Assembly: GCA_016186435.1 (NCBI GenBank)
Contig: JACPLQ010000001.1
Location: 1-59,212, forward strand
From: Candidatus Nomurabacteria bacterium
GTDB taxonomy: Bacteria > Patescibacteriota > Minisyncoccia > Phycocordibacterales > UBA9973
Length of the DNA stretch: 59,212 bases
Direction of reading: 5' to 3'
The position numbers and the translations under genes are program-made. Below the pieces are notes generated by a model, which saw nothing but the letters and a program-made list of their open reading frames with translations, made no database searches and was not told the DNA's origin. Shown here piece by piece: positions 5,818 through 26,738 of this stretch; position 1 is the first letter of the stretch; each line of letters starts with the position of its first letter.

Positions 5818-5910
5818 GGTTTGATATATAATGTGATCAATGCTTTCCAAAACTACGTTTGCGCAGGAGTATAAAAAGCTAAACAAAGCCCAAAAAGAGG
5901 CGAATAATTT
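5818..5910 (+). pseudogene. duplicated promoter plus 5' coding remnant of the helicase gene (paralogous to 9054-9145)
   Basis: ggtttgatatataatg...ATG..FAQEYKKLNKAQKEA aligns with ggtttaaggtataatg...ATG..FTEEYKKLNFAQKEA at the true helicase start. Roughly 75-80 percent nt identity by eye. Confidence 0.7.
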
Positions 5911-5944
5911 GACTTCTATTTATAAGTTGTTAATATATACATAT

Positions 5945-6136
5945 ATGACGACTATAACAATTCCCCAAAATTTAATGAACGAAAAAGATTTAATGATTGT
6001 TCCGCGCTCAAAATACGAGAGACTTTTGGCGTATTTAAAGATTATCGGAGAAGATGAAAATTTGTGGCGTAAAACCTCAAGAGATAATTTTTTAAAATCT
6101 TACAATAAGTCAGATATGGTTTATGACGAAATATAA
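5945..6136 (+). CDS. putative antitoxin of the MazF pair
   Basis: A small ORF overlaps the toxin start by 14 nt. The N-terminal motif IPQNLMNEKDLMIVPRSKYERLL is shared with the antitoxin at 15512 (IPKSLAQMGDLMLVPRAEYESFL). The track ORF starts at 5840 inside the helicase remnant; an internal ATG at 5945 is more likely. Confidence 0.6.
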   Translation: MTTITIPQNLMNEKDLMIVPRSKYERLLAYLKIIGEDENLWRKTSRDNFLKSYNKSDMVYDEI

Positions 6137-6446
6137 ATTTGGAGACGTTGTTTTGGTTATTTTTTATCAAACAGATGGCAGTCGAAAACAACGTCCAGCA
6201 TTAGTCGTTCTGGATATCGGAGACGACGATATCACCTTAGCGCCAATCACAACTACTGAAAGAAAAAGCAAGGGAGATTATAAAATAAAAAATTGGGAAC
6301 AATCGGGTTTATTGCTTAGTTCCTGGGTAAGATTGGCGAAAATCTCATGTTTGAGTAAAAATGATATTCATAAAAAACTTGGAACTTTTAGTCGGGAAGA
6401 CAAGAAAGCAGTAGTTTCTGTCTGGCGCAAATTATATAAATTTTGA
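6123..6446 (+). CDS. PemK/MazF family type II toxin
   Basis: KFGDVVLVIFYQTDGSRKQRPALVVLD...LAPITTT matches the MazF/PemK N-terminal SH3-like signature. Confidence 0.75.
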   Translation: MTKYKFGDVVLVIFYQTDGSRKQRPALVVLDIGDDDITLAPITTTERKSKGDYKIKNWEQSGLLLSSWVRLAKISCLSKNDIHKKLGTFSREDKKAVVSVWRKLYKF

Positions 6447-6456
6447 TTCATAAAAT

Positions 6457-6485
6457 TTGACAAAAATGCAGTTTGGGTGTATGAT
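6457..6485 (+). promoter_or_regulatory. sigma-70-type promoter of the DGR target gene (TTGACA, 17 nt, TATGAT)
   Basis: Perfect -35 at 6457-6462 and -10 at 6480-6485. It is followed by a structured leader of about 95 nt and the SD aaggagag. Confidence 0.5.
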
Positions 6486-6582
6486 ATATAAAGATGTGCG
6501 GGAGACACCTGCAACGTTTCCGGCGATTCCGGAATATACCTGTGAGCAACAGGTGAATGTCATTTAAAAAGGAGAGAATCCT

Positions 6583-7200
6583 ATGAACCCGTTCGAGAGG
6601 TTGTTCAAACTCTGGGCCATGATCTGTAAGATGATCATGGACGGCGTGCGCGACGCCGAAGAGGTCGCGAACATTCTGCAGGGCATCGTGGACGGCCCTG
6701 CGAATGTGGCGAAGAAGGTGGTCCGCCGCCTGCGTCTGACCCGCATGCTGTTCGGCGGTGTCGTACTCTCGGCCACGACGGGCCGAGAAGTCGAAACGGC
6801 GAAAGCCGTTTTCGACGGATACTGCGACCCCGCTTTTCTCGAGGGGGCCGAGAATGAGCAGCCGGAAGGCGAGTGCGCGCTCGACGTCGAGGAAATTATG
6901 GTAGATGGAAAGTATCGTCAGATCTTCGGCGGGTTCGGCCGCGACCTCGACGAGCTCGCGATGAGCCGGTCGCGAATCACGGCATTCTGCCGTGACCATC
7001 GCGACAAGCTCCGGGGCGGCGGCTATGGGACTTTCCTCCTCTTCAAGAGGCAGAAGTTCTTCTTCGTTGCCGGCGTGTACGTCGACGACGGCGGCCAGCT
7101 CAACGTGAGCGTCGACCCGCTCTCGCACGACGACGTCTGGTACGCCGAGTTTCAGCTACGCATCGTGGTTCCGCAGTCCCTTGGATCCCCGAGCGCGTAG
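6583..7200 (+). CDS. DGR variable (target) protein, GC-rich, with no signal peptide
   Basis: The C-terminal 39 codons are the VR copy of the downstream TR. GC content is far above its flanks. Confidence 0.85.
   Translation: MNPFERLFKLWAMICKMIMDGVRDAEEVANILQGIVDGPANVAKKVVRRLRLTRMLFGGVVLSATTGREVETAKAVFDGYCDPAFLEGAENEQPEGECALDVEEIMVDGKYRQIFGGFGRDLDELAMSRSRITAFCRDHRDKLRGGGYGTFLLFKRQKFFFVAGVYVDDGGQLNVSVDPLSHDDVWYAEFQLRIVVPQSLGSPSA
7060..7176 (+). repeat. DGR variable region (VR)
   Basis: 117 nt align with 7542-7658. There are 15 mismatches, all at template adenines. Confidence 0.9.
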
Positions 7201-7226
7201 CTCGGGTGCCGGAGGTCACCACCTCC
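7188..7226 (+). promoter_or_regulatory. two GC hairpins just 3' of VR (cccgagc/gctcggg, then GGAGGT-CACC-ACCTCC); candidate DGR target-recognition structure
   Basis: Stems read by hand at 7188-7206 and 7211-7226. The second has a 6-bp GC-rich stem and a 4-nt loop. Confidence 0.5.
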
Positions 7227-7227
7227 C

Positions 7228-7255
7228 GCTGGATGGAAACATCCAGCGTTTTTTA
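7228..7255 (+). terminator. rho-independent terminator of the target gene
   Basis: gctggatg-gaaa-catccagc followed by gttttttatttt. Confidence 0.75.
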
Positions 7256-7272
7256 TTTTGATTCTTTAATAC

Positions 7273-7485
7273 TTAGAAACTTTGTTTCTTAAATTTTTGA
7301 TATACTATATATGCAATTTGGAAATGTCTGCGGTCACGCACTTCAGGCCATGATTGCTTAAAATTTAATTCGAGAGTTTCCGTGGCCAAGGCTTCGGGAA
7401 GAGTGAATTTCTTTTTAAAACAAAAAACATAAAAGTTGGTGGGGTGAGCTCGAGGGGTTATATACCCCCGTATAAAATACAGCAC
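7273..7485 (-). CDS. hypothetical small ORF of doubtful coding status
   Basis: Known only from the ORF track. No motif recognised. Confidence 0.25.
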   Translation of the reverse strand: MLYFIRGYITPRAHPTNFYVFCFKKKFTLPEALATETLELNFKQSWPEVRDRRHFQIAYIVYQKFKKQSF

Positions 7486-7541
7486 AATCTTTCACCTAAA
7501 AAATGTCAGGCTGGCAGTGCCACAGATGGCGCACCCTACAT

Positions 7542-7658
7542 TTCTTCGTTGCCAACGTGAACGTCGACGACAACGGCCAGCTCAACGTGAACGTCAACCC
7601 GCTCTCGAACGACAACGTCTGGAACGCCAAGTATCAGCAACGCATCGTGGTTCCGAAA
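7542..7658 (+). repeat. DGR template repeat (TR), non-coding
   Basis: Adenine-rich copy of VR. In the VR frame it reads ANVNVDDNGQLNVNVNPLSNDNVWNAKYQQRIVVPK (AAC-rich). The track ORF 7517-7759 across it is in another frame and is spurious. Confidence 0.9.
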
Positions 7659-7669
7659 CTATAATGTTT

Positions 7670-7696
7670 CTCCCCGGTTTACTTCGGGGAGTTTTT
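7670..7696. terminator. bidirectional terminator after TR (+) and avd (-)
   Basis: ctccccg-gtttactt-cggggag followed by ttttt. Confidence 0.65.
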
Positions 7697-8062
7697 ATTT
7701 TCCAAATTTTTCTCTATGCCTTTCTTCCAACCGCCGAGCATTCTGCCGATTTCTTCTAATTGCTCCGAGAGAGCAATATATTTTTCATTTTTAACGCATT
7801 TGTTTTCCCAAGCAATCTGCAGGAAAAATTTTACCCCATCTAGCTTTGAAATTGATATAATCAATCTGGGTATTTTTTGGGTAGGAGGCAGATATATAGA
7901 AATGAAAATATTTTCCAATAGTCCGAGAAAATAATCTTCGATTTTTCCACCCAGGATATAGCGGTGCGCCTTCGGAAAGTCGTTGTAAATTTTAAACCAG
8001 AAAGAATAGGCAATTTTTGCTTTTAGAAGCGCCGATGGCGCTGCGGGGGGGGGTCTTAGCAA
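7679..8062 (-). CDS. avd: Avd-like four-helix-bundle DGR accessory protein
   Basis: FPKAHRYILGGKIEDYFLGLLENI...LSEQLEEIGRMLGGWKK resembles the bAvd / S23-IVS family. The start is a TTG, and a G9/C9 tract encodes its PPP at codons 4-6. Confidence 0.75.
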   Translation of the reverse strand: MLRPPPAAPSALLKAKIAYSFWFKIYNDFPKAHRYILGGKIEDYFLGLLENIFISIYLPPTQKIPRLIISISKLDGVKFFLQIAWENKCVKNEKYIALSEQLEEIGRMLGGWKKGIEKNLENKNSPK

Positions 8063-8063
8063 T

Positions 8064-9107
8064 ATGAGCCGACTGATTCATACCTATCAGAATATCATAA
8101 GTGTGGAAAATTTGCTCCTTGCCTGGCAGGAGTTTCTGCGCGGCAAGAAGGGTAAGAAAGATATAATTTTATTTCAAACCAAGCTAATGGACAACATCCT
8201 ATCCCTGCATCAGGATTTAAAAAACAAAACCTACAAACATGGCGGGTATGTAGCTTTTAACATATCCGATCCCAAACCCAGAAATATCCACAAGGCAACA
8301 GTGCGCGATAGGCTGCTTCATCATGCGATTTATAGAATTTTGTATCCATATTTCGACACAAAATTCATTCATGGTTCATATTCTTGCAGAATAGGAAAGG
8401 GCACGCATAGAGCGATCAACCGACTGCGGGAATTTCACCGAAAAGTTTCCAAGAACAACACCAAAACCTGCTATGTTCTAAAGTGCGACATCCGAAAATT
8501 CTTTGCAAATATTGACCACAGAATATTAAAAAATATTTTAGCGCAACATATCAAAGATAAAGACGTCCTATGGCTCTTGGGACAGGTGATAAATAGCTTC
8601 TCTTCACAAAAACATATTTACGCCATGGCTGATATGTATAAAGGCCTTCCGCTCGGGAACTTAACTAGCCAGCTTTTAGTAAATATTTATATGAACGAAT
8701 TTGACCAGTATATGAAAAGGGCGCTCAAGATTAAATGTTATATTAGATACGCAGATGATTTTGTAATTTTGCAAAATGACAAAATAGAACTTGAAAATCT
8801 TTTATCTAAAATCTCTAATTTTCTCTGTGAGAGTCTAAAGCTCTCATTACATCCCGACAAAGTTTATATTAAAACTATAGCTTCGGGAGTGGATTTTCTC
8901 GGGTGGGTGAATTTTCCCAAACACAGAGTTTTGAGGACGAGTACAAAAAGGCGTGCATTAAAAAATTTGTTGAATAATCCAACAAAGCCAGTAATAGTCT
9001 CCTACTTGAGCCTTTTTAAACACGGAAATATGAAGAAGATTCAAGCCGGTGCGGGTTTAAGGTATAATGGGCAGAATGGCCGAGCTTTTGTTTACAGAAG
9101 AATATAA
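8064..9107 (+). CDS. DGR reverse transcriptase
   Basis: RT motifs including IRYADDFVIL (YxDD) and the DGR-typical GLPLGNLTSQLLVNIYMNEFD. Confidence 0.9.
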   Translation: MSRLIHTYQNIISVENLLLAWQEFLRGKKGKKDIILFQTKLMDNILSLHQDLKNKTYKHGGYVAFNISDPKPRNIHKATVRDRLLHHAIYRILYPYFDTKFIHGSYSCRIGKGTHRAINRLREFHRKVSKNNTKTCYVLKCDIRKFFANIDHRILKNILAQHIKDKDVLWLLGQVINSFSSQKHIYAMADMYKGLPLGNLTSQLLVNIYMNEFDQYMKRALKIKCYIRYADDFVILQNDKIELENLLSKISNFLCESLKLSLHPDKVYIKTIASGVDFLGWVNFPKHRVLRTSTKRRALKNLLNNPTKPVIVSYLSLFKHGNMKKIQAGAGLRYNGQNGRAFVYRRI

Positions 9108-11961
9108 AAAACTAAACTTTGCCCAAAAAGAAGCAGTAGATTTGATTGACGGGCCGGTAATGGTGGTGGCGGGGCCGGGGACGGGGAAGACCCAGGTCTT
9201 GGCGCTTCGGATTGCCAATATTCTAAAAAAGACCGACGTGGGGGGCGACAGCATTCTTTGTCTCACGTTCACAAATTCCGCGGTGGGGGCCATGCGCGAA
9301 CGCTTGGTTCGCTATATCGGTGAAGCGGGGCAAAAAGTAAATATTTTTACTTTTCACAGTTTTGGCCTGGAGATTATAGAAAAATATTTTGATGTTTTGG
9401 GCTTGCGTGAGCCGCCCAAGCTCCTGGATGAATCCGAAAGCGCAGAATTCTTTGATGAAATTTTAGAAACTGGAGATTGGGAATTTTTGCGCCCACGCGG
9501 AGACAAGACCAGATATTTTGTCGACCTAAAATCGCTCTTTTCTCTTTTGAAACGCGAACGCATTACGGCGGAAGATTTTGCCGTGGCAATCGAACAGGCA
9601 ATTAAAAAGATTTCAGAAAGCGAAGACAGTATTTCAACCAGAGGCGCGAGCAAAGGCGAGCTCAAGCAGGAAGTAAAAAAAGACATTGAGAGTTTGGAGA
9701 AAAGCCGGGAAGTCGCCCGTTTTTTAGAAGTTTACGAGGTCCGCAAGAAAGAAAAAAATATGCTTGACTATGATGATGTCTTGGAAAACCTGGTCCGCAT
9801 CATGGAGACTTCCGAGGAAGCTCTGGCAGATATTCGCGAACAGTATCTCTACATTCTGGTGGACGAGCACCAGGATTCTTCCCGGGTGCAGAATGAATTT
9901 CTCTCGCGCGCTTGGGGCGAGGTGGAAGCCCCCAACATATTCGTGGTGGGCGACGACCGCCAGCTGATTTACGGCTTTGCCGGCGCGTCCATTGACCACT
10001 TCATAAGTTTCCAAAAAACTTTTCCGGGCGCCAAGCTGGTGCCATTGCTGGAAAATTATCGCTCCACTCAAGTAATCCTGGATGCGGCCCACGCGCTGCT
10101 CCCGAGTGTTTTATCTAAAGAAAAGCTCGTTAGTCAAAGTAAAGAAGCGCACCCAATCAAACTCGTAGAAGCTCAAACTCCGCGGGAGGAAATATTTGCG
10201 GCGGGGGAGGCAATAAAAAAGAAAATCGCGGAGGGCGTCAACCCCAATGCTTGCGCTCTACTTGTGCCCCAAAATATGCAAGCCCGCACGGCGCTGGAAA
10301 TATTGCACGCGATGAATCTGCCGCTCGCACTCGAGGAAGCGCTCAATCTATTTGACCAAAAAGAAGCGCACGCACTCTTGCGGATTTTAAAAATAATTTC
10401 CAAAGAAACTACAAAGAGCGATGCGCCAGCACTCGCCCTCTCTTTTTGGGATGATTTGTCCGGTATCCCGCCACTCGAAGCGCATAAGTTTTTAGCGAGT
10501 TTAAATATGCGCGAATTTTCTTTTGAGTCTTTACTCAACGCTCCCAAAACGCTATGGGGCGAAGGCGCTGTGGGAATGTGGCTTGGTAAACTTGCCAAAT
10601 GGCAGAAGGACGCAGAAGAAAATGACTTGTCCGCGCTCTTAGAAATTATTACTCGGGAAATATTTAATAAAGAAACTGCAAAAAAGAGGATTGTCCCGAT
10701 TGCAGATATCGCCGCAACCTTTCTGGCGCTTTTGGAAAAGCGTCCCGAGGCGTCCCTGCCGGAGTTCGTGGCATATCTTGATAAAGTGGTGGAATATGGC
10801 GACCCTATACCTTTAATTACCGAAAAGAAAAATGGTGTGCGGGTGCTGACTATGCACAAAGCCAAGGGCTTGGAATTTGATTTTGTCTGGATTGCGCATA
10901 TGGACGAGCGATCGCTAACCGGCGGGCGGAAATTTAATTTTGCTTTACCCGAGAGTATAAAAGAAAAAATAGAGGAGCGGGATATTGACGCGGTCAAGCG
11001 CAAACTTTTCGTGGCTATCACCCGCGCCAAGCGCTTTTGCGCCCTCTCGTATGCCTCTGCCTCGCATAAAGGGCGGGAGCAGGAACTCGCGAAAATTATC
11101 GCAGAGCTACCCGAAGAAGTTTTTTCCCGACACCCGGATAGGTCGGGATCCCGACTGCAAACGTCGGGGGAAAAACTAAAGTCGCGCGATCTCGCGGAGC
11201 TTAAAAAATTAGTCAAAGAAAAATATGCCGAGCGCTACGTTTCCGCCTCAATGCTGAATAATTTTTTTGAATGTCCTTGGAAATGGTATTTTCGGAATCT
11301 TTTGGGCATGCAGGAGCCCACAAACGAAAATTTAATTTTCGGCAGTGCGGTGCATGCGGCCCTGGAGCGGATTTTGAAACTTGGCAAGATAGTTTTGCCG
11401 GACAACGAAGAAGTCGCTCGCGTGGTCAAAGCTTGGGCCGAGAGGCGATTGCATGAGATTGAAAAGGCGCGTGAGAGCGAATATCCGCTTTCTGTAGGGG
11501 ACAAAAGATTTCCGCATCTCAAAATCTATGGCAAAATAGATTTGCTCGAGAAGCTCGGAGGGAATGAAGTGCGCGTGACAGATTTCAAGACCGGCAGCGC
11601 TCGCAAGAAAAGTGAAATTGAAAAATTGGACGATGAAGGCCGCTTGAGCGGCAATTTGCGCCAGCTTGCGATGTACGCTTATCTTATAGAGACAAGCCCC
11701 AAGTGGCGGGCGAGAGTGAGCGAATCAGCGCTTGAATTTGTGGAAGCAAAAGACAGGAAAAATGCTTTTTACCGTGCCGCGATCACACCGAACCAAATAA
11801 AACTTTTAGTAAAAGACATAAGAGATTATAATGAGCTGGTTTTAAAGGGGGAATGGGTCAATAGACCCTGCAATTACAATTCTTACGGCCACGCCAGAGG
11901 ACGGGCAGGCAATAATACTGAGTGCGAATACTGTACAATGGCAGAAATATATAAAGCCTAA
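9076..11961 (+). CDS. UvrD/PcrA-type helicase fused to a RecB-family PD-(D/E)XK nuclease with a Cas4/AddB-like Cys cluster
   Basis: Walker A AGPGTGKT, DEHQD, and VLTMHKAKGLEFDFVWI. The C-terminus has GKIDLLEK..VRVTDFKTG..QLAMYAYL plus Cys at FECPW and CNYNSY..CEYC. The track start is 9067; the ATG at 9076 sits 7 nt after the TATAAT at 9063-9068. Confidence 0.85.
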   Translation: MAELLFTEEYKKLNFAQKEAVDLIDGPVMVVAGPGTGKTQVLALRIANILKKTDVGGDSILCLTFTNSAVGAMRERLVRYIGEAGQKVNIFTFHSFGLEIIEKYFDVLGLREPPKLLDESESAEFFDEILETGDWEFLRPRGDKTRYFVDLKSLFSLLKRERITAEDFAVAIEQAIKKISESEDSISTRGASKGELKQEVKKDIESLEKSREVARFLEVYEVRKKEKNMLDYDDVLENLVRIMETSEEALADIREQYLYILVDEHQDSSRVQNEFLSRAWGEVEAPNIFVVGDDRQLIYGFAGASIDHFISFQKTFPGAKLVPLLENYRSTQVILDAAHALLPSVLSKEKLVSQSKEAHPIKLVEAQTPREEIFAAGEAIKKKIAEGVNPNACALLVPQNMQARTALEILHAMNLPLALEEALNLFDQKEAHALLRILKIISKETTKSDAPALALSFWDDLSGIPPLEAHKFLASLNMREFSFESLLNAPKTLWGEGAVGMWLGKLAKWQKDAEENDLSALLEIITREIFNKETAKKRIVPIADIAATFLALLEKRPEASLPEFVAYLDKVVEYGDPIPLITEKKNGVRVLTMHKAKGLEFDFVWIAHMDERSLTGGRKFNFALPESIKEKIEERDIDAVKRKLFVAITRAKRFCALSYASASHKGREQELAKIIAELPEEVFSRHPDRSGSRLQTSGEKLKSRDLAELKKLVKEKYAERYVSASMLNNFFECPWKWYFRNLLGMQEPTNENLIFGSAVHAALERILKLGKIVLPDNEEVARVVKAWAERRLHEIEKARESEYPLSVGDKRFPHLKIYGKIDLLEKLGGNEVRVTDFKTGSARKKSEIEKLDDEGRLSGNLRQLAMYAYLIETSPKWRARVSESALEFVEAKDRKNAFYRAAITPNQIKLLVKDIRDYNELVLKGEWVNRPCNYNSYGHARGRAGNNTECEYCTMAEIYKA

Positions 11962-26270: not shown

Positions 26271-26738
26271 ATGAAGAATCTGTTCGCGGTTTTCGTCGCG
26301 GTTTTTGCTTTAATGGTGGTCGGTTGCGCGACGACAGTCGTCTCGTCGCCCAAGTCGACGGTGAACACCGTCGACGGCCCCCTGGAGGCGAAAGGTGACC
26401 TCAATGCCGTCGTCAAGAGGACGACGACGACCACGACAACCGACGCCAATGGCATCGTAGTCGGCACCACCACCGAAGTGGTGGAGGAACAGGCGGCCCG
26501 CAACGCCTACGATGCCGAGCACGAGCTCGACATGCGCCGCGAGGACCGCAAGGAAGCGGTCGGCGTGGCGCGGGCGCAGAACCCGGCGCCGGTAATCGTG
26601 GTTCGGGGGAGTACGTATTATCGGACGGTGGGTAGTTCGTACCACCGACCCCCGAGACGAAACTATCGGACGGGCCCTCCGCGGACTGAACGCCCTGTCG
26701 GCCGTAACACGGTCGGCGGGAGCAAGTCCAAGCGTTAG
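26271..26738 (+). CDS. GC-rich putative lipoprotein with a Thr-run and an Arg/Pro-rich tail
   Basis: Signal peptide with a lipobox-like LMVVGC. GC content is far above its flanks, and the antisense ORFs in the track are GC artefacts. Confidence 0.6.
   Translation: MKNLFAVFVAVFALMVVGCATTVVSSPKSTVNTVDGPLEAKGDLNAVVKRTTTTTTTDANGIVVGTTTEVVEEQAARNAYDAEHELDMRREDRKEAVGVARAQNPAPVIVVRGSTYYRTVGSSYHRPPRRNYRTGPPRTERPVGRNTVGGSKSKR

What the first reader, a model, noticed from the sequence alone, without database searches (positions are those of the whole stretch)
6583..9107. Complete diversity-generating retroelement with strictly adenine-specific VR/TR differences
The last 117 nt region of the GC-rich ORF 6583-7200 (VR, 7060-7176) recurs at 7542-7658 (TR). 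In a base-by-base hand alignment the copies differ at 15 positions. At every one the TR base is A and VR carries G, T or C; all non-A positions are identical. In the VR frame, TR encodes an AAC-rich template (ANVNVDDNGQLNVNVNPLSNDNVWNAKYQQRIVVPK) against VR AGVYVDDGGQLNVSVDPLSHDDVWYAEFQLRIVVPQ. Adjacent are an Avd-like four-helix-bundle ORF (7679-8062, minus strand) and a reverse transcriptase (8064-9107) with YADD and the DGR-type LGNLTSQ motif. This is the textbook signature of mutagenic retrohoming. The layout is atypical: avd sits on the opposite strand between TR and RT, and TR is followed by its own terminator.
Basis: partly seen in the sequence, partly recalled or inferred. Interest (0 to 1): 0.85.

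Follow-up and report, generated by a model that had tools for sequence, protein, structure and literature searches.

The report
Protein-diversifying retroelement with structured template RNA
This is a genuine diversity-generating retroelement of the kind already known to be common in Candidate Phyla Radiation bacteria, so it is ordinary as a DGR, but its template lies at the 3' end of a conserved, folded ~230-base RNA found in no RNA family library, and the protein domain it diversifies matches no known fold.

Summary
VR 7060-7176 and TR 7542-7658 differ at 15 sites, and TR has A at every one (P~2e-10).

The RT (8064-9107) is closest to the Bordetella phage DGR RT. The minus-strand ORF is a bAvd protein. 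The source is a Candidatus Nomurabacteria (CPR) chromosome. It is a real DGR.

As an element this is a new member of a known kind.

Three further results came from comparing about 50 related loci:
- **Structured leader.** The 340-nt "spacer" between target and TR holds a promoter-like -10 box and a ~230-nt structured leader RNA. It has 41 base pairs, 32 with compensatory changes. It includes a 12-bp helix that ends 2 nt before the TR. No Rfam family matches.
- **Post-TR hairpin.** The hairpin plus U-tract is conserved with covarying stems. It matches the "Avd-binding stem-loop" reported for other DGRs.
- **Target domain.** It belongs to a family of at least 2,462 clusters at 50% identity, with no Pfam, PDB or fold match despite a confident model (pLDDT 94).

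Activity in this genome is untested. A sister locus shows natural variation confined to the VR.

The parts
6457..6485 (+). Sigma-70-like promoter of the target gene (TTGACA-17-TATGAT)
   Evidence: Matches 11 of 12 consensus positions. The same segment is conserved in the syntenic locus L009 (window 6452-6486 = L009 1964-1998, 89% identity).
6583..7200 (+). Target gene, 205 aa. N-terminal helices followed by a ~155-aa alpha/beta domain whose last strands carry the VR.
   Evidence: ORF. Homologues (2,462 clusters at 50% identity). No Pfam, NCBIfam or PDB hit. AF2 domain model has pLDDT 94.3 and pTM 0.89. Foldseek best E is 0.21. GC is 61.8% against 42.2% for the window.
7060..7176 (+). Variable repeat (VR), codons 160-198 of the target
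   Evidence: 15 of 15 mismatches to TR are at TR adenines. 13 are unambiguous. The last two (7174, 7176) are probably a fixed boundary difference.
7188..7206 (.). GC-rich inverted repeat CCCGAGC-gcgta-GCTCGGG, 12 nt after the VR end and spanning the target stop codon. Candidate target-site hairpin or cruciform.
   Evidence: Read directly from the sequence. Also present in L009. Not seen at this position in the other family-1 loci.
7227..7248 (+). Intrinsic-terminator-like hairpin plus T-run ending the target transcript
   Evidence: Analogous hairpins follow the target gene in related loci.
7298..7306 (+). Extended -10-like box TGaTATACT of the TR-RNA transcription unit
   Evidence: T12, A13 and T17 of alignment A2 (window 7301, 7302, 7306) are invariant in 37 loci. 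Coordinates. The transcription start itself is inferred, not shown.
7313..7541 (+). Conserved structured leader RNA, ~230 nt. Helices: 7328-7333/7341-7346; 7367-7371/7405-7409; 7377-7385/7392-7400; long-range 7439-7450/7528-7539; 7454-7458/7462-7468; 7482-7486/7512-7515.
   Evidence: nhmmer finds one hit per locus in 65 of 93 loci, always on the + strand and ending at the TR start. RNAalifold gives 41 pairs, 32 with compensatory changes. 95.1% of cells are paired against 70.4% in shuffles; covariation score is 0.78 against 0.28 (0/500 shuffles), and slid controls give 0.09-0.19. No conserved ORF. No Rfam family. Coordinates.
7542..7658 (+). Template repeat (TR): 32 adenines, 9 AAC codons in the VR frame
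7655..7670 (+). Tentative short duplex between the TR 3' end (GAAAC, 7655-7659) and GTTTC (7666-7670), stacked under the hairpin. Candidate cis-priming duplex.
   Evidence: Predicted in the single-sequence fold. Present in 22 of 43 loci, with GAAAG/CTTTC in other TR families. Evidence is weak: A/U-rich and not universal.
7670..7701 (+). Post-TR hairpin CTCCCCGG-tttact-TCGGGGAG (7670-7691) followed by a U-tract. Terminator-like and Avd-binding-stem-loop-like.
   Evidence: Hairpin plus TTTTnTTTT is present 6-15 nt after TR in at least 42 of 49 loci, with 41 different stem sequences and a modal stem of 8-9 bp. Literature parallel.
7679..8062 (-). avd accessory gene, 127 aa. Its stop codon lies in the loop of the post-TR hairpin.
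   Evidence: Pfam bAvd PF22296, E=1.7e-11, 45 bits against a cutoff of 40. NCBIfam DivGenRetAVD E=3e-15, below its cutoff. Same position and strand in L002 and L009.
8064..9107 (+). DGR reverse transcriptase, 347 aa, with YADD and LGNLTSQ
   Evidence: Best PDB sequence match is 8ub7_A at E=3e-38, against about 1e-22 for group II intron RTs. LGNLTSQ aligns with IGSLTSQ, residues I181-Q187 of that chain, which are the bRT residues named by Handa et al.. Pfam RVT_1. 434 related loci in species-representative genomes.

Best explanation
The region is a chromosomal diversity-generating retroelement of the CPR lineage (architecture B3: target - TR - avd on the reverse strand - RT) in a Candidatus Nomurabacteria genome.

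Shown by the sequence and by comparison:
- A DGR-clade RT, an Avd, and a TR/VR pair that differs only at TR adenines.
- The VR encodes the last three beta-strands and a loop of a small protein.
- The TR sits in what looks like its own transcription unit. The order is a conserved -10 box, a ~230-nt leader with six covarying helices, the 117-nt TR, a conserved hairpin, and a U-tract.

Inferred by analogy with the Bordetella phage element:
- A transcript of about 390 nt folds and binds the RT-Avd complex.
- The post-TR hairpin is the Avd-binding stem-loop and probably also the terminator.
- cDNA synthesis starts at or next to the G of the TR's terminal CCG (7655). It copies the TR with random nucleotides opposite adenines.
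- The 12-bp leader helix that ends 2 nt upstream of the TR stops synthesis. This is the job done in Bordetella by a duplex between sequences upstream and downstream of the TR.
- The cDNA replaces the VR. About 10^18 protein variants are possible, spread over one face of a beta-hairpin and the following loop.

The structured RNA scaffold is therefore mostly 5' of the template here, whereas in the Bordetella element it is 3'. What the target protein binds is unknown.
For: **A-only mismatches.** 15 of 15, P=1.8e-10. The same pattern recurs in 49 non-redundant related loci with 5-29 mismatches each.

**RT.** Closest to Bordetella bRT, E=3e-38, with the SQ-type motif.

**Avd.** Pfam bAvd above its cutoff.

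**Architecture.** Identical in L002 and L009. It is the CPR norm in Wu et al..

**Leader.** Sequence-conserved in 65 of 93 loci, always abutting the TR, even where the TR and target families are unrelated. 41 pairs, 32 with compensatory changes, and far above both controls. Helix 7439-7450/7528-7539 has 8 of 12 pairs with double changes and 98% pairing, and it ends 2 nt before the TR. The -10 positions T, A and T are invariant.

**Post-TR hairpin.** Present in at least 42 of 49 loci with 41 distinct stems. It fits the Avd-binding stem-loops described by Handa et al..

**Boundary.** A fixed VR/TR difference lies immediately 3' of CCG in nearly all loci. This fits a cDNA start at that G.

**Natural diversification in the family.** Alleles P0006 and P0169 differ at 24 nt inside the 108-nt VR and at 1 nt in the other 475 nt. 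18 of the 25 differences are at TR adenines.
Against: - No reads were available, so VR heterogeneity in this population is untested. The target's 90%-identity cluster has a single member.
- No transcript data exist. The transcription start, termination at the U-tract and the RNA's ends are inferred from consensus motifs, and CPR promoters are poorly known.
- How RT and avd are expressed is unclear. Their start codons abut divergently (8062/8064).
- The role of the leader (RT-Avd scaffold, stop duplex) rests on position and analogy only.
- The candidate priming duplex is found in only 22 of 43 loci and is A/U-rich.
- There is no BPP-1-like 14-bp G/C-only IMH. The inverted repeat after the VR is shared only with L009.
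- NCBIfam's Avd model scores below its cutoff.
Confidence: 0.85

Rival explanations
1. It is a DGR by descent but no longer active: a fossil cassette whose VR is now fixed.
For: There is no population data. The target protein's 90% cluster has one member, and exact copies are seen on only 3 contigs. Several homologues of the target sit in genomes without an adjacent RT.
Against: There is no non-adenine difference in 117 nt of TR/VR, although the flanks are fully diverged. RT motifs are intact and the ORFs are full length. The promoter box, leader helices and hairpin all fit the clade consensus. A sister locus shows VR-only allelic variation.
Confidence: 0.1
2. The conserved leader is not part of the reverse-transcription machinery. 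It is a regulatory 5' UTR or small RNA that merely controls production of the TR transcript, and the post-TR hairpin is only a terminator. The RT-binding RNA elements would then lie elsewhere, for example in read-through RNA antisense to avd.
For: In the Bordetella element all known RT-binding and Avd-binding RNA lies 3' of the TR, apart from 20 nt upstream. The hairpin with its U-tract has the textbook form of an intrinsic terminator. No experiment links the leader to the RT.
Against: The leader co-occurs with this RT/avd lineage whatever the TR or target family. Its 3'-most helix always ends within a few nt of the TR start. Only about 45 nt separate the TR from the U-tract, too few for Bordetella-type elements. 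The sequence beyond is constrained as avd coding sequence on the other strand.
Confidence: 0.3
3. The repeat is an ordinary segmental duplication or gene-conversion tract next to an unrelated retroelement RT (retron, group II intron or defence RT).
For: NCBIfam's best hit for the RT is the group II intron RT/maturase model, but far below its cutoff: 153 bits against 300.
Against: All 15 differences fall on TR adenines (P=1.8e-10). The RT matches bRT 16 orders of magnitude better than it matches group II RTs. An Avd is present. No intron RNA or retron family is found by Rfam. The same geometry recurs in about 50 loci.
Confidence: 0.01

Closest known systems
CPR/Patescibacteria DGRs: architecture B3, TR-(avd)-RT, of Wu et al. 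2018 (PMC5758913); DGR clade 2 of Roux et al. 2021 (PMC8144416)
   Same: Host lineage (Nomurabacteria). Gene order and strands. A small target with no recognisable domain or transmembrane segment. VR at the C-terminus. Chromosomal location.
   Different: Nothing in the element itself differs; it is a member. The descriptions I could read do not include the structured leader 5' of the TR, or the finding that this VR family's confident model matches neither C-type lectin nor Ig folds. Wu et al. left such VRs as 'UVR/ungrouped', and Roux et al. guessed they would be new C-lectin variants. I could not read Paul et al. 2017, the main CPR DGR paper.
Bordetella phage BPP-1 DGR (mtd-avd-TR-brt)
   Same: RT family and SQ motif. 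Avd. A-to-N mutagenesis. AAC-rich TR. VR at the 3' end of the target. A stem-loop directly 3' of the TR. A duplex right at the 5' edge of the TR.
   Different: [quoted passage not shown] The ~140-nt structured spacer 3' of the TR (Rfam RT-10) is absent. Instead a ~230-nt structured RNA lies 5' of the TR, and a U-tract follows the first 3' hairpin. The duplex at the 5' edge of the TR is made with upstream sequence, not downstream. The target is not an Mtd-type C-lectin tail fibre. There is no 14-bp G/C IMH.
Rfam RT-10 RNA and the other 'RT-n' motifs (Weinberg et al. 2017, PMC5737381)
   Same: Structured non-coding RNAs found next to bacterial RT genes. RT-10 is the BPP-1 TR-brt spacer.
   Different: No RT-n family reaches threshold on this leader in the window or in 18 related loci. 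A weak RT-9 hit (22 bits against a cutoff of 46, E=0.68) does not recur in 8 other loci.
Retron ncRNA (msr-msd). This is a comparison of how it may work, not of membership.
   Same: The order along one transcript is a structured non-template RNA at the 5' side and the reverse-transcribed template at the 3' side, with the RT gene downstream and an own promoter. This rests on established knowledge of retrons, not on a test here.
   Different: Different RT clade. No msr/msd family hit. Avd is present, mutagenesis is adenine-specific, and there is a genomic VR target.

Membership tests
Diversity-generating retroelement (DGR) | Reverse transcriptase of the DGR clade (closest to bRT; motif [ILV]GxxxSQ) | tested here: met
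   Best PDB sequence hit is 8ub7_A (328 aa) at E=3e-38. The next hits, group II and retron-type RTs, are at about 1e-22. LGNLTSQ aligns to IGSLTSQ, I181-Q187. Those are the bRT residues named in Handa et al..
Diversity-generating retroelement (DGR) | TR/VR near-repeats whose differences are confined to adenines of the TR | tested here: met
   15 of 15 mismatches at TR adenines and no other mismatch in 117 nt; P=1.8e-10.
Diversity-generating retroelement (DGR) | VR in frame at the 3' end of a protein-coding target, with TR adenines concentrated at codon positions 1 and 2 (AAC) | tested here: met
   VR covers codons 160-198 of 205. There are 9 AAC codons. Adenines by codon position are 12/18/2. 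Only 2 codons can mutate to a stop.
Diversity-generating retroelement (DGR) | Accessory variability determinant (Avd) or another accessory gene | tested here: met
   Pfam bAvd PF22296, E=1.7e-11, 45 bits against a cutoff of 40. NCBIfam DivGenRetAVD E=3.3e-15 but 56 bits against a cutoff of 80.
Diversity-generating retroelement (DGR) | IMH at the VR 3' end, a differing IMH* at the TR 3' end, and a GC-rich inverted repeat downstream of the VR | tested here: inconclusive
   The flanks diverge completely after CCG. VR has GCAG/GCAA where TR has GAAA in nearly all loci. An inverted repeat at 7188-7206 lies 12 nt after the VR but is shared only with L009. There is no 14-bp G/C-only block.
Diversity-generating retroelement (DGR) | Ongoing VR diversification in the population | not testable with these tools
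   No reads are available. Indirect evidence comes from sister alleles P0006 and P0169, which differ at 24 nt in the VR and 1 nt elsewhere.
CPR DGR, architecture B3 (Wu et al. 2018) | Order TR - avd (reverse strand) - RT, with the target upstream, in a CPR genome | tested here: met
   Coordinates and strands. Organism name. Definition and frequency. Same order in L002 and L009.
C-type lectin-fold or Ig-fold DGR variable proteins (Mtd, TvpA, AvpA; Ig1/Ig2 classes) | The VR lies in a domain with a detectable C-type lectin (FGE-sulfatase/DUF1566-like) or Ig fold | tested here: not met
Bordetella-type DGR RNA (Rfam RT-10 spacer) | [quoted passage not shown] | tested here: not met
   There is no RT-10 hit at gathering threshold or at E<=10. 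The TR-RT interval is occupied by avd on the other strand. Only one hairpin precedes a U-tract.

The most novel reading that the evidence does not exclude
The B3-type DGRs that dominate the Candidate Phyla Radiation use a rearranged template RNA. Most of the protein-binding scaffold, and the duplex that stops reverse transcription, lie in a ~230-nt structured leader 5' of the TR. Only an Avd-binding hairpin that doubles as a terminator lies 3' of it. The priming solution would therefore differ from the Bordetella paradigm. One of their main target families would be a third kind of DGR variable-protein scaffold, neither C-type lectin nor Ig. It would display variability on a beta-sheet face in a probably cytoplasmic protein.
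Probability: 0.4. Interest if true: 0.75.

Novelty: new member of a known kind. Interest (0 to 1): 0.5.

Why it matters
As a DGR, this adds one more CPR example to thousands.

The value lies in what the comparison shows about the whole CPR clade. That clade holds 434 loci in species-representative genomes alone.

**Template RNA.** The clade's template RNA has a large conserved structure on the opposite side of the template from the only DGR RNA understood mechanistically. This gives a concrete and testable RNA for asking two questions. How do Avd-dependent DGRs prime and stop cDNA synthesis when the Bordetella spacer is missing? Which RNA features are truly universal? The covariation-supported model could also be turned into an RNA family that finds CPR DGR templates directly.

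**Target domain.** The domain belongs to a large family (thousands of 50%-identity clusters) with a confident model and no detectable relative of known fold. If confirmed, this widens the set of protein scaffolds that tolerate DGR hypervariation. That matters both for understanding what CPR cells diversify and for engineering binders.

Tried and rejected
1. **Rfam.** The weak RT-9 hit inside the leader (E=0.68) did not recur in 8 other loci and no related locus reached any RT-n threshold. I treat it as chance.
2. **Protein-coding leader.** Rejected. The longest open frames vary in strand and length, and only 17% of gap runs are multiples of 3.
3. **Leader A-run pairing with the U-tract.** The single-sequence fold suggested pairing between the leader A-run (7417-7428) and the post-hairpin U-tract. 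Both are invariant, so there is no covariation to support it. Not claimed.
4. **Priming duplex GAAAC/GTTTC.** Found in only 22 of 43 loci. Kept as tentative.
5. **Further VRs in the window.** None match this TR.
6. **Viral contigs.** A scan with the leader motif gave 120 pattern hits. None contains the leader by profile search, so they are chance.
7. **Second GC-rich ORF, 26271-26738.** A lipoprotein-like gene unrelated to the DGR.
8. **Literature gaps.** Paul et al. 2017 (PMC5436926) is not held, and the Wu et al. supplements are not held. I could not check whether this VR class equals one of their UVR1-6, or whether the leader was noted there.
9. **First homology search.** The word-index search suggested a tiny family of 18 proteins. 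The exhaustive profile search showed that this was a sensitivity artefact.
Full report
**1. The observation**

The repeat finder reports 7060-7173 against 7542-7655. A base-by-base comparison at offset 482 extends the match to 7060-7176 / 7542-7658, with abrupt loss of similarity on both sides. There are 15 mismatches, and TR carries A at every one.

TR has 32 A in 117 nt, so the chance of this pattern is 1.8e-10. In the VR frame the TR has nine AAC codons, and its adenines fall 12/18/2 on codon positions 1/2/3. About 10^18 protein variants are encodable.

The ORFs, strands and motifs (YADD, LGNLTSQ) are as described. So is the hairpin with its T-run after the TR.

**2. Identity of the parts**

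The RT's best match among all PDB sequences is chain 8ub7_A at E=3e-38. Group II intron and retron-type RTs follow at about 1e-22. That chain is 328 aa, and its IGSLTSQ occupies residues 181-187. These are the bRT residues named in the cryo-EM study of the Bordetella phage DGR.

The minus-strand ORF matches Pfam bAvd above its cutoff. It also matches NCBIfam's DGR-Avd model, though below that cutoff.

The target protein is annotated in NCBI as a hypothetical protein of a Candidatus Nomurabacteria bacterium. The window also carries tRNAs and RNase P RNA, and the cassette lies among ordinary chromosomal genes such as TerC and a UvrD-type helicase-nuclease. The cassette is therefore chromosomal, in a CPR bacterium.

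**3. The layout is not atypical**

Wu et al. 2018 define architecture B3 as TR-(avd)-RT, with avd on the reverse strand. [quoted passage not shown] Roux et al. 2021 place CPR DGRs in their own clade and note that the targets usually lack recognisable domains.

Related loci confirm this. A complete Nomurabacteria genome (L002) and a syntenic metagenomic locus (L009: PG-binding, TerC, target, TR, avd, RT, helicase) have the same order and strands. Their mismatches are 15/15 and 19/19 at TR adenines.

A scan of one genome per species found 434 loci encoding relatives of this RT, and the best 80 are 60-79% identical. Among these and the earlier loci, 49 non-redundant cassettes have a clean A-biased VR/TR pair. 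Their geometry is very uniform. The VR-to-TR offset is 384-515 nt in all but one, and the gap from target stop to TR is 246-394 nt in all but one.

**4. The gap between target and TR is a conserved structured RNA**

An alignment of the gap in 12 loci showed strong non-coding conservation. A profile of it finds exactly one hit per locus in 65 of 93 loci. The hit is always on the TR strand and always ends at the TR start. This holds even in cassettes whose TR and target are unrelated to ours. It occurs once in the window.

In a 37-sequence alignment (A2) the T, A and T of a -10-like hexamer are invariant (window TATACT 7301-7306, preceded by TG).

RNAalifold predicts 41 base pairs, and 32 of them show compensatory double changes. 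An independent count gives these values:

| Measure | Observed | Control |
|---|---|---|
| Cells paired | 95.1% | 70.4% in column shuffles |
| Covariation score | 0.78 | 0.28 in shuffles (0 of 500 reach it) |
| Covariation score, partners slid 1-3 columns | – | 0.09-0.19 |

The helices in window coordinates are:
- 7328-7333 / 7341-7346
- 7367-7371 / 7405-7409
- 7377-7385 / 7392-7400
- 7439-7450 / 7528-7539 (12 bp, long-range)
- 7454-7458 / 7462-7468
- 7482-7486 / 7512-7515

The long-range helix ends 2 nt before the TR.

The region holds no conserved ORF. No Rfam 15 family matches it, either in the window or in 18 related loci. A weak RT-9 hit does not recur.

**5. The 'terminator' after the TR**

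A hairpin starts 6-15 nt after the TR and is followed at once by TTTTnTTTT. It occurs in at least 42 of 49 loci, with 41 different stem sequences and a modal stem of 8-9 bp. The structure is therefore selected, not the sequence. The avd stop codon lies in its loop on the other strand.

Handa et al. examined 40 nt upstream and 100 nt downstream of the TR in 278 Avd-containing DGRs, including CPR examples. They report stem-loops 'just downstream of TR', most often 9 bp, which they interpret as Avd-binding elements by analogy with the Bordetella structure. Here the U-tract adds the form of an intrinsic terminator. Both roles may hold.

Only about 45 nt separate the TR from the U-tract. The 140-nt Bordetella-type spacer (Rfam RT-10) is absent.

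**6. The 3' boundary**

In family-1 loci the TR ends ...CCG|AAAC, while the VR reads ...CCG|CAA or CAG. That codon is a Gln conserved across the protein family. Other TR families of the clade show the same GAAA (TR) against GCAA (VR) difference.

Information transfer probably begins at the G of CCG (7655).

The TR's GAAAC can pair with the GTTTC that immediately precedes the hairpin. Some other families have GAAAG/CTTTC. This duplex is seen in only 22 of 43 loci and is A/U-rich. I note it as a candidate cis-priming duplex and nothing more.

**7. The target**

The first, word-indexed search found 18 relatives. The exhaustive profile search found 2,462 cluster representatives at 50% identity with E<=1e-3, and 446 with E<=1e-30. 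The conserved core spans about residues 46-200, and some proteins carry two or three tandem copies.

Pfam finds nothing, either in the window protein or in 132 members. A profile search against PDB sequences also finds nothing; its best E is 0.74.

AlphaFold2 gives a confident full-length model (pLDDT 85) and a very confident domain model from a 132-sequence alignment (pLDDT 94.3, pTM 0.89). Foldseek against the PDB finds no hit better than E=0.2 and TM 0.24 for either model, and no C-type lectin or Ig chain is in the top 50. BFVD also gives nothing significant.

The variable codons alternate along two adjacent predicted strands (residues 164/166 and 174/176/178) and continue into the next loop. 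This suggests one variable sheet face, but that is inferred from secondary structure and not from coordinates. Within this one RT clade the targets fall into several unrelated VR families, and ours is 12 of 49.

**8. Evidence of activity**

No reads were available for this genome. In a sister locus, two natural alleles of a family member (P0006 and P0169) are identical in protein outside the VR. They differ at 24 nucleotides within a 108-nt VR stretch and at one nucleotide in the other 475 nt. Eighteen of the 25 differences lie at adenines of the adjacent TR.

In the window, several features argue against a long-dead element: no non-A mismatch, intact genes, and consensus RNA elements.

**9. 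Verdict**

As an element it is a further member of the already catalogued CPR B3 DGRs, not an unusual layout.

The points of interest are clade-wide features that I could not find described: the structured leader 5' of the TR, and a VR-bearing domain with no detectable known fold. Both rest on solid computed evidence for their existence. Their roles (RT-Avd scaffold and stop duplex; a new variable-protein scaffold) are inferred.

Noticed in passing
window 5818-6451 (ORFs 5840-6136 and 6123-6446); compare 5857-5912 with 9090-9145: Relative to the syntenic locus L009, a two-gene module is inserted between TerC and the DGR target's promoter. It consists of an unassigned 98-aa ORF plus a PemK/MazF-type toxin. 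The first ~22 codons of the 98-aa ORF are a 73%-identical copy of the 5' end of the UvrD/PD-(D/E)XK helicase gene that lies just after the DGR.
   Followed up: partly
window 6583-7200; also targets in L002, L009, L017, L022, L040 and others: The whole target gene, not only the VR, is far more GC-rich than its genome: 61.8% GC and GC3 0.82, against 42.2% for the window and 37% for the RT. All 12 family-1 targets average +14.6 points over their loci. Many other small targets of the clade show the same, but the ~630-aa targets do not. No explanation was found.
   Followed up: partly
L005-L008 (P0002, 71% identical to the window target), L001 (P0005), L012 (P0014): Homologues of the target sit in unrelated genomic contexts with no RT, avd, TR or leader within the fetched flanks. 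P0002's VR differs from the window's TR at 23 adenine sites and only 8 other sites, so it looks diversified by a related TR. These may be remote targets or orphans.
   Followed up: partly
window 8045-8066 and 9067-9107: The avd start (TTG, 8062, minus strand) and the RT start (ATG, 8064, plus strand) are back-to-back. In L002 and L009 the two ORFs overlap. Each gene's promoter and ribosome-binding site must therefore lie inside the other's coding sequence. A run of nine G (8045-8053) encodes the Pro-Pro-Pro of Avd. The RT's 3' end overlaps the helicase start by 41 nt.
   Followed up: no
window ~7262-7290; same position in 11 related loci: Conserved CTTTG(A)-type repeats, about 8 nt apart, lie just upstream of the TR-RNA -10 box. 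They may be a regulator-binding site or a promoter element.
   Followed up: no
proteins P0019, P0020, P0029: Some members of the target family contain two or three tandem copies of the ~155-aa domain. Only the last copy ends in the VVPQ-type C-terminus typical of the VR.
   Followed up: no
L093 3001-3624 and 3980-4113; L094 133-729: Two natural alleles of a family member are identical outside the VR and differ at 24 nt within it. 18 of the 25 total differences are at TR adenines. A few non-adenine differences also occur, including three adjacent ones.
   Followed up: yes
loci L029, L052, L063, L068-L073, L077, L078, L084, L089, L092: The same RT/avd/leader lineage also serves large targets of about 610-745 aa with a different VR family (C-termini like ...GLWL...W...FVFRxRK). 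The cassette has evidently been re-targeted repeatedly.
   Followed up: partly
window 26271-26738: This is the only other strongly GC-rich ORF in the window (63.5% GC). It encodes a small Thr-rich protein with a lipoprotein-like signal (…VVGC…) and is unrelated to the DGR.
   Followed up: partly
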